Origin: Escherichia phage tonnikala
Sequence record: NC_049817.1
Direction: 5' to 3' (one strand)
Length of the DNA: 51,277 bases
Position numbers and translations under genes: made by a program. Positions 1 to 51,277 of this stretch are shown here, piece by piece. Position 1 is the stretch's first letter. Each line of letters begins with the position of its first letter. Under the pieces are notes generated by a model. The model was not told the origin of the DNA. It did no database searches and saw nothing but the letters and a program-made list of their open reading frames with translations.

Positions 1-541
1 CATGCACCAGGTGACAAGGTAGCGCGTGAATGTATCGACCATCCTTGACGCCGCAATCATAATGACAATCTTCCGGCGGATATATCCCCTCATAAACGCT
101 TAAGGGTGTGCGATCGAATTTTAATGTTTTTGCCATCACTTTTTCGCAGCATTCATGACTTGCCTGTTTCCCGAACGAGTAGCCAGAAGAACGTGAAGCG
201 CGCTTGTTTGCTCTGATCCTGTAATCTTGTGGCACTTTGCCGAGGAAGCGGCCCAAAATGTTGATGGCCTCGCTGTAAGGTTCGCCAGTTAATTTCATTA
301 ACCAACCGATCCCTGTGTCGTTACCGCATACGTTGCAGATCGCGCCGCCGTCGCCCTCTTCATTTAGCTTATCAGTCCATCTAAAACGATCCTTACCGCC
401 GCAGTGTGGGCAAGGCTGATGCTTTTTGTTGAAAACATCGCTATGCAGTCCGCAAATGCTTTGTAGTGCTTCACGCCATAACCCCTTCATATATGGCAAA
501 ACATCTTCTTTCTGATAGGTCATAAAGTTTTCAGTATTCAT
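1..541 (-). CDS. DNA primase, N-terminal zinc-binding domain (partial; gene continues past window start)
   Basis: Open minus-strand frame from ATG at 539-541 to window edge, not in ORF track. Translation begins MNTENFMTYQ and has CPHCGG...CNVCG zinc-ribbon cysteines typical of primase-helicase zinc-binding domains. Confidence 0.6.
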   Translation of the reverse strand, partial: MNTENFMTYQKEDVLPYMKGLWREALQSICGLHSDVFNKKHQPCPHCGGKDRFRWTDKLNEEGDGGAICNVCGNDTGIGWLMKLTGEPYSEAINILGRFLGKVPQDYRIRANKRASRSSGYSFGKQASHECCEKVMAKTLKFDRTPLSVYEGIYPPEDCHYDCGVKDGRYIHALPCHLVH

Positions 542-13986: not shown

Positions 13987-14199
13987 TTATCGTAAAGATT
14001 TAAAGACGTATAGTTTATTGCGGTAACTATATATCCGCATTGTTATTTCTCGCAGTGCAATATATTCCTTCCTGTTTTCCGGCAGACTGGCGAGCAATAA
14101 CAGGCAGTATTTATAAGCGCGGTCAAGATTCCTTTCCGTGCCACTGCAATATCCCTTGTTGCGCCTGGAGCGGTACAGCCATAACAATTTCTTGAACAT
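13987..14199 (-). CDS. hypothetical basic small protein
   Basis: Trimmed to internal ATG (MFKKLL...) abutting upstream stop (TGAaATG); longer track ORF overlaps neighbour. Confidence 0.3.
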   Translation of the reverse strand: MFKKLLWLYRSRRNKGYCSGTERNLDRAYKYCLLLLASLPENRKEYIALREITMRIYSYRNKLYVFKSLR

Positions 14200-14200
14200 T

Positions 14201-14410
14201 TCAGATACGCCCATACAGATCACAGACTTCGTTGATAAAACAGCGTTGAGACTCTTTATCCTGCTTCTCAAACATCGCACGGCACTCATAGCGGTGATTA
14301 TGTACGATGACAACAACCATATTTTCAGGTGCTGACGGGTGACGCGCGGAAGCGTCGCAGATTGAAACATCCATACCCATCTCATGTGCTTTCTTGATCA
14401 CATCCAACAT
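14201..14410 (-). CDS. hypothetical protein
   Basis: Start set at MLDVIKK with AGGAG RBS 8 nt upstream. Confidence 0.4.
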   Translation of the reverse strand: MLDVIKKAHEMGMDVSICDASARHPSAPENMVVVIVHNHRYECRAMFEKQDKESQRCFINEVCDLYGRI

Positions 14411-16825: not shown

Positions 16826-16844
16826 TAGCACTTTTTGTTAAAAC
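16826..16844 (+). promoter_or_regulatory. conserved intergenic motif copy
   Basis: Directly after TAA stop; CATAAT 18 nt downstream. Confidence 0.45.
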
Positions 16845-16922
16845 TCAAAAGCGATAACCAGGCATAATAAATCACATAGGGCGGCACGGCGTCGCCCACA
16901 AAACCAATCAGGAGAAAGCATC

Positions 16923-17537
16923 ATGTTAAAACTTGCTGACATTAAATTCCCGATCACTTTCGAATCTCGTGGCGTTGGTCATTACATTTTTACCGATGAG
17001 AAAACATGCCATAACGTTTGGTTGCACAGCGATAAGCCAAGCCCATCAACAATGGAGATTCAGCACTTCATTGATGCGCATAATCAGCACTACAACTCAA
17101 TCCGTGACTACGGCTACGCAATGCCAGGCTACACATGCTTGCACTACAAGCCATATAAGGGCCAGGTGTTACCAGTGCGCTCGCCGGAACGCGCAGAGAT
17201 TCCGATGGTCCACATGAAAACCTGCGACTACAAAAAGCTGTGGTGCTTAAACGTGGACAATATCAAGTATCCGATCACGTTCCGCTCCGCTGGTAATTCA
17301 ACGATTCGCTACACATCGCGCGACAATGGCGTTTATAGCAATGGTCAGAAATCAGGGTTTAAGGTGGATTTCTTTGTTAATGGTCATAATAAATACAATC
17401 CGCACAATGAAAAGATAAGATTTACTATGTGGAAGACATTACAAAACACTTATTTGGAGAAACACCATTCGGCGGCGGAAAGACGTCAATTCAAAAAATC
17501 ATTGGCGAGGAGATCCACAAAGCGGCTGCCGAAATGA
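16923..17537 (+). CDS. hypothetical protein with internal tandem-duplicated domain
   Basis: 204 aa; two related segments (IKFPITFESRGVGHY... and IKYPITFRSAGNSTI...); C-terminus overlaps next ORF. Confidence 0.45.
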   Translation: MLKLADIKFPITFESRGVGHYIFTDEKTCHNVWLHSDKPSPSTMEIQHFIDAHNQHYNSIRDYGYAMPGYTCLHYKPYKGQVLPVRSPERAEIPMVHMKTCDYKKLWCLNVDNIKYPITFRSAGNSTIRYTSRDNGVYSNGQKSGFKVDFFVNGHNKYNPHNEKIRFTMWKTLQNTYLEKHHSAAERRQFKKSLARRSTKRLPK

Positions 17538-17815
17538 AAGCGCCTGGAGGATGGCGTATTGATAAGAGCGCCTTTGCAAATCAAGAAATCGTAACGAAGG
17601 GCGCGATTGAAGATATGCCAGTTGCAGCTACTCTAAAAGGAGTCCGGCTTGATGACGGCACCTGGTTTGAAGTAACGGCTACACCAAAGACGATCGAGAT
17701 TCATGATGACGTTGTTATTCTTCTGCTTCACTACGGCGGCTATAAAAACCGGACGGTTGCAGGTGAGATCAGCATCAAGCGCGGAACGATGGTTAAGTGG
17801 AAGGTGAAGATTTGA
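17429..17815 (+). CDS. hypothetical protein (GTG start in track; overlaps previous ORF by about 108 nt)
   Basis: 128 aa ORF in another frame; true start uncertain, possible frameshift relationship with upstream ORF. Confidence 0.35.
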   Translation: MEDITKHLFGETPFGGGKTSIQKIIGEEIHKAAAEMKAPGGWRIDKSAFANQEIVTKGAIEDMPVAATLKGVRLDDGTWFEVTATPKTIEIHDDVVILLLHYGGYKNRTVAGEISIKRGTMVKWKVKI

Positions 17816-17891
17816 GTTTGTTCACTGCGGCGCACGTCGCCGCATGGATCGGATTGTTTGCCTACCTGTTTAGCTTTTATTGAGGTGAGAG

Positions 17892-18113: not shown

Positions 18114-18551
18114 ATGTACATTAAAAAGAAGATGAAATGCGTTTCCGTTAACTATGCTTGCTCTGGCATGTTCAAGCCTGGCGAAATCTATACGGCGCAA
18201 AAACTGAAAACATCAACCGGATCTTTTTACGTGAGCAATAGTAAGGGGCATCGCATGTTCCTGAACGGCGGCGAAGGCACTAAGGTTATGGCACACGCTA
18301 TGGTAATGGCTGAATTTGAGGAAGTGAAAGATGAAAACAATAAGCGCGTCAAGCACAGGTTTACTGATAACCACGGCGACGCGATTGATGTATACAAGTT
18401 CGGCGATCGCGTGTTTATTGATGGCACGTTTGAATGTGGGCGTAGGCCGGATTTTAGGTCGATACTTACCGTTGACCAAGTGCGCAAGCTGGCAGATAAG
18501 TTAAATGATCTGGCAGATGAAATAGAATACAAACAAATCCATTTTAATTGA
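18114..18551 (+). CDS. hypothetical protein
   Basis: Start set at MYIKKKMK with AGGAG RBS; 145 aa. Confidence 0.5.
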   Translation: MYIKKKMKCVSVNYACSGMFKPGEIYTAQKLKTSTGSFYVSNSKGHRMFLNGGEGTKVMAHAMVMAEFEEVKDENNKRVKHRFTDNHGDAIDVYKFGDRVFIDGTFECGRRPDFRSILTVDQVRKLADKLNDLADEIEYKQIHFN

Positions 18552-29541: not shown

Positions 29542-30051
29542 ATGGCTAAAATTGGAGCAAGTTATTTTGACACTATGGCGCGTGCGCTTCCTGGTCAGGT
29601 ATCCGACACGTCAGCATATAACATCGACGGCGCTTGCGTTCTTGACAAGGAAGACGGCATCCCAATCCTGGTTGGCGTGGCTGTTAAGCTAAAAGGCGTT
29701 GACTCAATGGGTAATAAGCTGATCGACGCTATTTCTGGTGGTGGTGATGTTCCTTATGGCGTTGGCGTTCGTTCGCACTTTCAAACTACGGCTGATAATG
29801 GTCGAATGGTTTATGAGGCTGGCGGCGGAATCAACGTTATGACTGAGGGCCGTGTCTGGATGATTGGCGATGATTCCGATAAAAGCAAAAAGCCAGAATA
29901 TCGTGAGCCTGTAAAAATTGATGAAAACTCTGGCAAGGTGAAAAGTGCTGGCGCTATCAATACAAACTGGGTTTACACTGGCGATAAAACCACTTTTGGA
30001 ACTGGCAATAATATGTTGACTTTGTTTGAAGTTCAGGTCTTCCCAAGCTAA
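29542..30051 (+). CDS. head-associated protein, possible decoration protein
   Basis: 169 aa; N-terminal domain paralogous to the next gene (YNIDG...; RVWMIGDD versus GVVWCVTQ). Confidence 0.4.
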   Translation: MAKIGASYFDTMARALPGQVSDTSAYNIDGACVLDKEDGIPILVGVAVKLKGVDSMGNKLIDAISGGGDVPYGVGVRSHFQTTADNGRMVYEAGGGINVMTEGRVWMIGDDSDKSKKPEYREPVKIDENSGKVKSAGAINTNWVYTGDKTTFGTGNNMLTLFEVQVFPS

Positions 30052-30102: not shown

Positions 30103-30885
30103 ATGGCTAAAGATTATTCATCTGTTATGGGTCTTTCTTGTCCTGGTTGTTTGGTTGATTCTACTCGCTACAATATTGATGGTACTGGCGTTTGTGGTTC
30201 TGAATCGATCATTGCTGGTAAGGTTGTTTTCTTTAAGGAGAGAATCGGCGGTTACAACATATTTGTTGACCACAAAGAGGAGGACGCTGTGGTTGCAGGT
30301 GTTGCGCTAAGGAGCAACATAACAACGACAGTTAACGAGGAAGACGGGTATTCCGACTACAAGGAAGGAGACGCCATCAACATTTTGACAAGAGGTGTTG
30401 TATGGTGTGTAACTCAAACAATTGAATCTCCCCCTGAGCATGGGGATCTTGTTTATGTTAACAATGATGGTTTTGTAGCAAAGAGTGATGGCGATGAAAT
30501 CGTCGATGGCTGGATTTTTACTGGTGACTTCTACAAGTTTGATGAAACAATAAACATAGTCGGAGTCAGAATAACGCCGCTTTATCATAGAAAATATCTT
30601 CTCACTGGTGCGATCATTGAGGCTGAAAATGGATACATAGAGGGAACAGAGACGATTGATAACGTCCAATTAAAGGTGACAGTTGTTCCGACTTGGGCCG
30701 ACGACAAAACTGGTCATTGGACAATTACAAATCCACAAGATCCAATGGTTGCCAGTGTTAGTCGAACAGGCCTTGTTGTTCCTACTGGTGTGGGAGGTAG
30801 AGTTAACGTCAACTGGACTGCTAATGATGGTTCTGGAGTTGCTGACCAGTTTGATATTGTATTTACGAAAACCGCTGGCGAATAA
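30103..30885 (+). CDS. head-associated protein with C-terminal Ig-like domain
   Basis: Start at MAKDYSS with AAGGAG RBS; N-terminal domain paralogous to previous gene; C-terminal beta-rich Ig-like segment. Confidence 0.45.
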   Translation: MAKDYSSVMGLSCPGCLVDSTRYNIDGTGVCGSESIIAGKVVFFKERIGGYNIFVDHKEEDAVVAGVALRSNITTTVNEEDGYSDYKEGDAINILTRGVVWCVTQTIESPPEHGDLVYVNNDGFVAKSDGDEIVDGWIFTGDFYKFDETINIVGVRITPLYHRKYLLTGAIIEAENGYIEGTETIDNVQLKVTVVPTWADDKTGHWTITNPQDPMVASVSRTGLVVPTGVGGRVNVNWTANDGSGVADQFDIVFTKTAGE

Positions 30886-50888: not shown

Positions 50889-51277
50889 TTATAGCAGTGA
50901 TTCGGGCTTGTAGAGTTTTCTTTCTACGCCCTGTTTAAAATTATCGTTAACAGGCATCATTATGTCAAGACCTCTTTCCTCTGCCGCGATTATCACATCA
51001 CGATCATCCTTCCGGCAGACTACGCGCATTCTTCTTTCTCCTTTATATCTATGCGCAACCATTTCAAGATTTGAAGGAGTAAAGCAAGCCCACACCTCTT
51101 GACCAGTTGATAAATGAACATGCTGGGAATCAACCCAATCAAGGCACAAATAGATCGTCTTATCCGTGCTACCTGTTTTAACAACAGATCCGCGCGTGTA
51201 GTCGCGAGCTAAAAACCAATCCTTTCCATCCTCATCAATGAAAAGCACGTTACACATTTCATCATCCACCAGGTGAC
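50889..51277 (-). CDS. hypothetical protein (5' end may lie beyond window)
   Basis: Open minus frame to window edge; track start at 51269 is GTG; internal ATG at 51255-51257. Confidence 0.4.
   Translation of the reverse strand, partial: HLVDDEMCNVLFIDEDGKDWFLARDYTRGSVVKTGSTDKTIYLCLDWVDSQHVHLSTGQEVWACFTPSNLEMVAHRYKGERRMRVVCRKDDRDVIIAAEERGLDIMMPVNDNFKQGVERKLYKPESLL

What the first reader, a model, noticed from the sequence alone, without database searches (positions are those of the whole stretch)
16923..17815. Overlapping ORFs with a possible frameshift and an internally duplicated domain
The 204-aa ORF contains two related segments, indicating a tandem duplication. Its last 35 residues are low-complexity and overlap by about 108 nt a second ORF in another frame that begins with GTG and looks more protein-like. 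This may be a programmed or accidental frameshift making a fusion, or a genuine overlapping gene.
Basis: seen in the sequence. Interest (0 to 1): 0.45.

Follow-up and report, generated by a model that had tools for sequence, protein, structure and literature searches.

The report
One phage gene split by frameshift
The two overlapping ORFs are the halves of one conserved 297-residue phage gene of unknown function, split because one A is missing from a short run of A's; this is an ordinary frameshift mutation, not a programmed frameshift or a true overlapping gene.

Summary
ORF1 (16923-17537, 204 aa) and the GTG ORF2 (17429-17815, 128 aa) overlap by 109 nt, and ORF1 carries an internal duplication. 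The window is Escherichia phage tonnikala (Drexlerviridae, Warwickvirus).

- **One gene in relatives.** The same 893 nt is a single 296-297-aa ORF in more than 100 protein clusters and in every GenBank relative I inspected.
- **The lesion.** The window has GAAAAG (A4, 17410-17413). Relatives have GAAAAAG, TAAAAAAG or GAAGAG, always one base longer.
- **Family match.** One profile, phrog_7116, spans both halves.
- **Not programmed.** There is no X_XXY_YYZ heptamer and no downstream RNA structure. No relative keeps a two-frame layout at this site.
- **Probably real.** The genome was Illumina-sequenced at 1556x. The same gene is independently broken elsewhere: an amber codon in phage damhaus, and other 1-nt indels in several assemblies. 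A genuine loss-of-function or splitting mutation in a dispensable early gene is therefore more likely than a sequencing error.
- **The protein.** It is modular: one to three copies of a ~60-aa N-terminal module, a disordered linker and an SH3-like C-terminal barrel. It has no Pfam or PDB relative and no known function.

Interest is low.

The parts
16826..16868 (+). Promoter-like cassette upstream of the gene: the conserved 19-mer TAGCACTTTTTGTTAAAAC (16826-16844) followed by a -10-like CATAAT (16863-16868).
   Evidence: The 19-mer occurs 16 times in the window against 0.05 expected, always oriented with the downstream gene. The aligned copies show a -10-like hexamer 18-19 nt after the motif. 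Promoter function is inferred, not shown.
16910..16914 (+). Shine-Dalgarno sequence AGGAG, 8 nt upstream of the ATG at 16923.
   Evidence: Read directly from the sequence.
16923..17815 (+). The whole ancestral gene, 893 nt here against 891 or 894 nt in relatives. It corresponds to bas04_0067, pSf-1 gp38 and tiwna_80, and is interrupted here by a 1-nt deletion.
   Evidence: DNA alignment A1. Annotations of relatives. tblastn of bas04_0067 gives two pieces, aa 1-164 in frame 3 and aa 164-297 in frame 2.
16923..17093 (+). N-terminal module copy 1, residues 1-57.
   Evidence: Internal repeat, E = 3e-5. AF2 elements E11-15, E19-23, E29-32, E39-42 and H46-56.
17244..17414 (+). N-terminal module copy 2, residues 108-164 still in frame. 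In intact homologues the module runs to about residue 178.
   Evidence: phrog_7116 profile positions 1-69 match ORF1 residues 108-176. AF2 pLDDT is above 90 for residues 110-170.
17410..17413 (+). The lesion: an A4 run where close relatives have A5 or A6, or GAAGAG with no run. One base is missing.
   Evidence: every relative with DNA in hand has one more base here. No phage record matches the 80-nt A4 context exactly; six records match 80 of 81. The exact A4 26-mer is absent from IMG/VR, while the A5 26-mer is found twice.
17415..17537 (+). Out-of-frame tail of ORF1: 40 basic-rich codons plus the TGA stop at 17535-17537.
   Evidence: This frame matches nothing in homologues: tblastn switches frame at aa 164.
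17429..17815 (+). It is the ancestral frame from Val170 (the GTG) to the stop, and holds the disordered linker and the C-terminal domain.
   Evidence: phrog_7116 profile positions 74-173 match ORF2 residues 33-127. Alignment A1.
17534..17815 (+). The 93-aa ORF that GenBank annotates as tonnikala_34. Its ATG (17534-17536) overlaps the ORF1 stop codon as ATGA, so termination-reinitiation is possible.
   Evidence: Exact protein look-up gives QHR71305.1. The ATGA overlap is read. Reinitiation is inferred.
17585..17812 (+). C-terminal small beta-barrel domain, residues 222-297 of the intact protein, with an SH3-like fold.

Best explanation
The region is one gene, a Drexlerviridae-specific early-region accessory gene of unknown function. 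In its intact form it encodes about 297 residues: two tandem copies of a ~60-residue alpha/beta module, a disordered linker and an SH3-like C-terminal barrel.

In this genome, phage tonnikala, one A has been lost from a short A-run at 17410-17413. Translation from the ATG at 16923 therefore leaves the ancestral frame after Lys164, reads 40 unrelated codons and stops at 17535-17537. The result is a 204-aa protein with both N-modules and no C-terminal domain.

The rest of the ancestral frame survives as an ORF that a mechanical ORF finder starts at an internal GTG (Val170). GenBank starts it at Met201 instead. The deletion is most likely a real replication-slippage mutation that inactivates or splits a dispensable gene.

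Any intact or C-terminal product would come only from low-level events. One is a -1 slip of the lysine tRNA from AAG to AAA, which would regenerate exactly the wild-type sequence. The other is reinitiation at the ATGA overlap.

Shown: the single-gene ancestry, the position of the 1-nt deletion, and the absence of programmed-frameshift signals. Inferred: that the deletion is real rather than an assembly error, that it causes loss of function, and that the residual expression routes exist.
For: - **Relatives carry one ORF.** NorthRox, tiwna, PGN590, pSf-1, FritzSarasin and vB_Eco-B1.2 each annotate a single 882-894-nt CDS at this position. The 120 best protein clusters are all 296-297 aa, apart from one 374-aa form with three repeats.
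- **The lesion is one base in an A-run.** Alignment places a single 1-nt gap in the window inside the run.
- **One family covers both halves.** phrog_7116 matches both ORFs in order.
- **The A4 allele is unique.** No phage record or IMG/VR contig has it.
- **Sequencing quality.** The exact ORF1 protein identifies the window as phage tonnikala. That genome was sequenced on Illumina NextSeq at 1556x coverage (PMC7552041), which argues against a consensus error in a 4-5-nt homopolymer.
- **The gene is broken independently elsewhere.** Damhaus has TGG to TAG at Trp107. A 50.9-kb contig has A6 to A7 at gene position 572, giving 196 + 93 aa. A 1-nt deletion at position 223 gives 97 + 200 aa in sewage-metagenome assemblies of what may be one sample; a 200-aa product in the C-terminal cluster comes from a Shigella flexneri assembly whose DNA I did not inspect. 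Two further contigs have a TGA plus a 1-nt deletion about 10 nt downstream of this site.
- **Disruptions spare essential genes.** Every structural and replication gene of the window is intact against FritzSarasin. This fits mutations filtered by selection better than random errors.
Against: - No reads were available, so an assembly or consensus error at the A-run cannot be excluded.
- The window has a second unique 1-nt homopolymer deletion only 0.9 kb away, at 18339. Two such events in one genome could point to local assembly trouble, and the lysate held three phages.
- Loss of function is inferred. The 204-aa fragment keeps both N-modules. Stand-alone N-modules and stand-alone C-domains exist as natural genes, so the halves might still work.
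Confidence: 0.72

Rival explanations
1. Sequencing or assembly artefact. The phage really has A5 and an intact 297-aa gene, and the deposited consensus dropped one A.
For: The lesion is a 1-nt change in homopolymer length and is unique among all relatives. A second unique homopolymer deletion at 18339 fuses two neighbouring genes. The lysate contained three phages and was assembled de novo with CLC and SPAdes.
Against: Illumina NextSeq at 1556x coverage rarely miscalls 4-5-nt runs in a consensus. All frame-breaking differences fall in small non-essential early genes and none in about 30 kb of structural and replication genes. The same gene is independently broken in other Illumina-based assemblies and by a nonsense substitution in damhaus, which cannot be a homopolymer artefact.
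Confidence: 0.2
2. Real mutation with two working products. The 204-aa N-fragment and a 93-aa C-terminal domain are both made and functional, the second by termination-reinitiation at the ATGA overlap (17534-17537). The split would then be tolerated or even selected, rather than a null allele.
For: The ORF1 stop TGA overlaps Met201 of the ancestral frame. That Met lies about 20 residues before the predicted C-terminal domain, inside the disordered linker. Natural stand-alone C-domain genes of about 80-101 aa and stand-alone N-module genes of 66 aa exist. One contig carries the C-module as its own GTG-started gene behind an AAAGGA Shine-Dalgarno-like sequence. Several independent breaks fall at module boundaries or in the linker.
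Against: There is no Shine-Dalgarno sequence before ATG 17534. The ATGA overlap is a by-product of a frame that relatives do not use. Other disruptions, such as position 223 inside or just after module 1, are not at boundaries. No expression data exist.
Confidence: 0.15
3. Programmed recoding. A -1 ribosomal frameshift or transcriptional slippage at the A-run makes the full-length fusion at a regulated ratio.
For: A -1 slip of the lysine tRNA from AAG (17412-17414) to AAA (17411-13) would give NEK-DKIYYVED, identical to the intact protein of tiwna. A_AAG is a known shift-prone sequence in E. coli; this rests on established knowledge of dnaX and IS-element frameshifting and was not tested here.
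Against: There is no X_XXY_YYZ heptamer: the sequence is T_GAA_AAG. The downstream 76 nt fold no better than shuffles (-7.2 kcal/mol, z = -0.13). A4 is far below the roughly 8-9 A's that I recall, from general knowledge, being needed for appreciable transcriptional slippage. All relatives encode the protein in one frame, and some have no A-run, so no recoding signal can have been selected.
Confidence: 0.03

Closest known systems
phrog_7116 / VOG7646: uncharacterised Drexlerviridae early protein (pSf-1 gp38, bas04_0067, tiwna_80; the one-module version in T1 and TLS gp06)
   Same: The two window ORFs together cover the whole 173-position profile in order: E = 1.5e-29 for ORF1 and 1.5e-39 for ORF2. 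The repaired protein is 85-97% identical to more than 100 full-length clusters. The genomic position is the same, behind the same promoter-like cassette.
   Different: In the window the reading frame is broken after residue 164. The Warwickvirus and Hanrivervirus forms carry two N-modules, whereas the profile and T1-like phages carry one.
Frameshift or nonsense pseudogenes and split genes in phage accessory regions
   Same: A single-base homopolymer indel splits an otherwise conserved ORF. The same gene shows independent lesions in other isolates and assemblies.
   Different: Nothing distinctive. The only notable point is that several breaks fall in the inter-domain linker, and that this one creates an ATGA stop/start overlap.
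Programmed -1 frameshifting of the dnaX, phage tail-chaperone G/GT or IS-element type
   Same: Two overlapping frames with the second in -1, and an A_AAG sequence at the junction.
   Different: There is no tandem slippery heptamer and no stimulatory structure. The two-frame layout is not conserved; relatives are in frame.
SH3-like small beta-barrels of translation proteins (EF-P domain I, eIF5A N-domain, uL2 C-domain, Pelota N-domain, Sm)
   Different: Sequence identity is only 5-13%. No sequence-level relation to any PDB chain or Pfam family was found. Foldseek finds nothing below E = 0.2. This is a generic fold resemblance and gives no functional assignment.

Membership tests
phrog_7116 (Drexlerviridae protein of unknown function) | Significant match to the family profile across its full length. 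| tested here: met
   ORF1 residues 108-176 match profile positions 1-69, and ORF2 residues 33-127 match positions 74-173, with E = 1.5e-29 and 1.5e-39.
phrog_7116 (Drexlerviridae protein of unknown function) | Encoded as one uninterrupted ORF. | tested here: not met
   The window needs a frame change at 17410-17414. Relatives are uninterrupted.
Programmed -1 ribosomal frameshift site | Slippery heptamer X_XXY_YYZ in the zero frame. | tested here: not met
   The sequence is AAT_GAA_AAG, that is T_GAA_AAG. Only a single-tRNA A_AAG slip is possible.
Programmed -1 ribosomal frameshift site | Stimulatory element, either a downstream hairpin or pseudoknot or an upstream internal Shine-Dalgarno sequence. 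| tested here: not met
   The fold of 17405-17480 is -7.2 kcal/mol against a shuffle mean of -6.9, z = -0.13. No AGGAGG-like sequence lies just upstream.
Programmed -1 ribosomal frameshift site | Two-frame layout conserved among relatives. | tested here: not met
   All six annotated relatives, the 120 best protein clusters and the eight intact copies with DNA in hand are single-frame.
Transcriptional slippage site | Long homopolymer, roughly 8-9 or more A or T (threshold recalled from established knowledge, not tested here). | tested here: not met
   The run is A4 at 17410-17413.
Genuine overlapping gene pair | The downstream ORF has its own start with a ribosome-binding site, and both frames are conserved. 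| tested here: not met
   No Shine-Dalgarno sequence precedes GTG 17429 or ATG 17534. The ORF1 tail frame has no homologue. Variation among relatives in the overlap is biased to the third position of the ancestral frame only, 12/11/23.
Homopolymer contingency (phase-variable) locus | Tract length varies between closely related genomes and switches the ORF on and off. | tested here: inconclusive
   A4 (off), A5 and A6 (on) and GAAGAG (no tract) occur at this site. A second tract at gene position 572 is A6 (on) or A7 (off). The tracts are short, off-alleles are rare, and other lesions are not in tracts.

The most novel reading that the evidence does not exclude
The repeated, independent disruptions of this one accessory gene are not neutral decay. 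They comprise three 1-nt indels in or next to its inter-domain linker (one of them with an additional TGA), one 1-nt indel at gene position 223 and one amber codon. Under this reading they reflect selection: the intact protein is sensed by a host defence system or is costly on some hosts, and the short A-tracts in the linker act as mutational switches that uncouple or silence the C-terminal barrel.
Probability: 0.07. Interest if true: 0.5.

Novelty: new member of a known kind. Interest (0 to 1): 0.15.

Why it matters
The main value is for annotation. tonnikala_33 and tonnikala_34 in GenBank and RefSeq, with their UniProt and BFVD entries, are two fragments of one gene. They should be flagged as a frameshifted gene and not treated as two protein families.

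The analysis also defines the modular architecture of an uncharacterised Drexlerviridae-wide protein: one to three N-modules, a linker and an SH3-like barrel. It shows that the gene is dispensable often enough to be found broken in several isolates. That is a modest lead for anyone screening T1-like early genes for host-takeover or defence-related functions.

Tried and rejected
- **Function by sequence.** Pfam on both ORFs and on 44 family members gave nothing significant; the best hit was E = 0.028 in one member. A PDB sequence-profile search gave no hit at E <= 1.
- **Genome-wide frameshift scan.** I tested whether the window is riddled with frameshifts, as a low-quality assembly would be. 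Against FritzSarasin, three genes are affected. One of them, the T3/T4 difference at 14322, is shared with vB_Eco-B1.2 and so is a natural polymorphism. That leaves two window-unique events, at 17412 and 18339.
- **Same allele elsewhere.** I looked for the A4 allele in other assemblies and found none. The exact 204-aa product is on record only from the tonnikala record itself.
- **Literature.** A search on Drexlerviridae frameshifts returned nothing relevant.
- **Second homologue search.** Searching with the distant-homologue alignment returned only 13 proteins.

Full report
**Observation.** The mechanical ORF list confirms a 204-aa ATG ORF at 16923-17537 and a 128-aa GTG ORF at 17429-17815 on the + strand. 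They overlap by 109 nt, and the second lies in the -1 frame relative to the first. ORF1 has a good Shine-Dalgarno sequence (AGGAG, 16910-14). The internal duplication is real. Residues 2-56 and 107-159 align at 29% identity with E = 3e-5. Both begin with the signature (D/N)IK(F/Y)PITF(E/R)S.G.

**What the two ORFs are.** A PHROG scan gave the key result. One 173-position family, phrog_7116, matches ORF1 residues 108-176 with profile positions 1-69. It matches ORF2 residues 33-127 with profile positions 74-173. The two ORFs are therefore consecutive parts of one protein.

Megablast of the region finds 153 Drexlerviridae records. In NorthRox, tiwna, PGN590, pSf-1 (gp38), FritzSarasin (bas04_0067) and vB_Eco-B1.2, the homologous DNA is annotated as a single CDS of 882-894 nt. 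The window stretch is 893 nt, which is not a multiple of three.

The DNA alignment shows a single 1-nt gap. Relatives read AATGAAAAAGATAAG, or AACGAAGAGGATAAA in pSf-1 and FritzSarasin. The window reads AATGAAAAGATAAG. The A-run at 17410-17413 is A4 instead of A5.

All eleven relatives aligned across this site and the further contig have one more base here. The two closest intact copies, at 96-97% nucleotide identity, have TAAAAAAG.

Searching with the conceptually repaired 297-aa protein returns 311 hits. The best 120 clusters are all 296-297 aa, apart from one 374-aa form. tblastn finds the family in 223 phage records. The 60 records listed, taken at even steps down the ranking, are nearly all a single uninterrupted piece. 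The GTG 'start' of ORF2 is simply Val170 of the ancestral protein (...NEKDKIYYVEDITKH...).

**Programmed frameshift or overlapping gene?** Neither reading is supported.
- The junction is AAT_GAA_AAG, which is not an X_XXY_YYZ heptamer.
- A4 is far too short for transcriptional slippage.
- The 76 nt downstream fold at -7.2 kcal/mol against -6.9 for shuffles, z = -0.13.
- Relatives encode the protein in one frame, and some lack the A-run. No recoding signal can have been under selection.
- Among relatives, variable columns in the overlap segment are distributed 12/11/23 over codon positions of the ancestral frame. This is the pattern of one coding frame.
- The ORF1 tail of 40 residues has no homologue: tblastn changes frame at residue 164.

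Two low-level rescue routes do exist by accident. A -1 slip of the lysine tRNA from AAG (17412-14) to AAA would regenerate exactly the wild-type sequence. The ORF1 stop TGA (17535-37) also overlaps an in-frame ATG (17534-36, Met201) as ATGA, which could allow reinitiation. Both routes are inferences.

**Real mutation or sequence error?** An exact-sequence look-up identifies the window as Escherichia phage tonnikala (51,277 bp). ORF1 is tonnikala_33 (QHR71304.1). GenBank calls the downstream part as a 93-aa tonnikala_34 from ATG 17534. The source paper (Olsen et al. 2020, PMC7552041) reports Nextera XT libraries, Illumina NextSeq and CLC plus SPAdes assembly. Its Table S1 gives 1556x coverage for tonnikala, from a lysate holding three phages. 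A consensus error in a 4-5-nt run is unlikely at that depth.

A genome-wide comparison with FritzSarasin (about 98% identical) shows every structural, replication and lysis gene intact. Three small early genes are affected:
- this one, at 17412;
- 18339 (A3 to A2), which is also unique to the window and fuses the bas04_0069 and bas04_0070 orthologues into tonnikala_36;
- 14322 (T3/T4), which is shared with vB_Eco-B1.2 and so is a natural polymorphism.

The same gene is also broken independently elsewhere.
- Damhaus has TGG to TAG at Trp107 and is annotated as 106 + 192 aa.
- A 50.9-kb Logan contig has A6 to A7 at gene position 572, giving 196 + 93 aa.
- Sewage-metagenome assemblies, possibly all from one sample, lack one T at position 223, giving 97 + 200 aa. 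A 200-aa member of the C-terminal cluster from a Shigella flexneri assembly may be the same lesion, but I did not inspect its DNA.
- Two contigs carry a TGA at about codon 80 plus a 1-nt deletion roughly 10 nt downstream of the window's site. This gives a 128-aa ORF from the same GTG.

I therefore favour a genuine mutation in a dispensable gene, at about 0.7-0.75. Assembly error is the main rival, at about 0.2. Only the reads can settle it.

**The protein.** An exhaustive HMMER scan of 1.84 billion cluster representatives finds only 42 relatives. The family is narrow and, judging from the phage-record hits, largely confined to Drexlerviridae. It has modular architectures:
- one N-module plus the C-domain, 165-190 aa, as in T1 and TLS gp06;
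- two modules, 297 aa;
- three modules, 374 aa, P0004;
- a stand-alone C-domain of about 80 aa;
- a stand-alone N-module of 66 aa.

One contig carries the linker plus C-domain as its own GTG-started gene, behind an AAAGGA Shine-Dalgarno-like sequence and after an unrelated coiled-coil ORF.

The AlphaFold2 model was built on a 44-sequence alignment and has mean pLDDT 69.6. By segment:
- residues 1-57, module 1, pLDDT 66-86;
- residues 58-104, disordered;
- residues 108-178, module 2, pLDDT above 90;
- residues 181-221, disordered;
- residues 222-297, beta-barrel, pLDDT about 88.

The window's break falls at residue 164, near the end of module 2, about 14 residues before the module ends and the disordered linker begins.

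**Context.** The gene sits behind one of 16 copies of the 19-mer TAGCACTTTTTGTTAAAAC, against 0.05 expected by chance. Each copy starts at or just after the preceding stop codon, in most copies encloses a short GC-rich inverted repeat, and is followed by a -10-like hexamer. These look like promoter cassettes that delimit small early-gene modules.

**Verdict.** The 'accidental frameshift' and 'tandem duplication' readings are right, and the 'programmed frameshift' and 'overlapping gene' readings are not. This is an ordinary frameshift-split gene that deserves an annotation fix. Interest is low. The residual curiosity is why this gene is broken so often, several times in its linker.

Noticed in passing
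window 18330-18345 (ORF 18051/18114-18551): There is a second window-unique 1-nt homopolymer deletion: AACAAATAA in all relatives becomes AACAATAAG here. It removes the stop codon of the bas04_0069 orthologue and fuses it in frame to the bas04_0070 orthologue. The product is the 145-aa tonnikala_36, whereas relatives have two ORFs of 72-76 and 73 aa.
   Followed up: partly
window 14318-14326 (- strand gene, 13990-14410): A T4/T3 difference splits the orthologue of bas04_0060 (140 aa in FritzSarasin) into two frames. vB_Eco-B1.2 shares the window's state and annotates two short ORFs there, so this is a lineage polymorphism and not unique to the window.
   Followed up: partly
window, 16 sites (e.g. 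3574, 4645, 14995-, 16363, 16826, 18042, 19274, 22070): The 19-mer TAGCACTTTTTGTTAAAAC occurs 16 times against 0.05 expected, oriented with transcription. Each copy begins at or just after the upstream stop codon. In most copies it is followed by a short GC-rich inverted repeat, and in all by a -10-like hexamer (CATAAT, TATAAT or TATAGT). These look like promoter/stem-loop cassettes that bracket small early genes and could mediate module shuffling.
   Followed up: partly
P0004 (374 aa, Logan contig); L021 (phage damhaus NC_049827 36697-37605); L014 (SRR4425710 contig): The gene varies in copy number and modularity. One variant has three N-modules. Damhaus has an amber codon at Trp107 that separates module 1 from a T1-like one-module protein. 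One recombinant carries the linker plus C-domain as a stand-alone GTG-started gene after an unrelated coiled-coil ORF.
   Followed up: partly
window 16879-16897 and 17827-17843: GC-rich hairpins without a T-tract flank the gene: an imperfect GGGCGGC...GTCGCCC upstream and a perfect GCGGCG-CACGT-CGCCGC downstream. The terminator scan did not call either one. Their role is unknown; they might be RNA processing or stability elements.
   Followed up: no
window 1-541 and 50892-51269 (- strand): The DNA primase gene (bas04_0031 orthologue) runs across the ends of the window. The deposited linear sequence is therefore circularly permuted relative to the gene map and cuts this gene.
   Followed up: no
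window 29542-30048 and 30103-30882: Two adjacent head genes, the capsid decoration protein and the following hypothetical protein, are paralogues. They are about 29-32% identical over about 160 aa, E about 1e-12.
   Followed up: no
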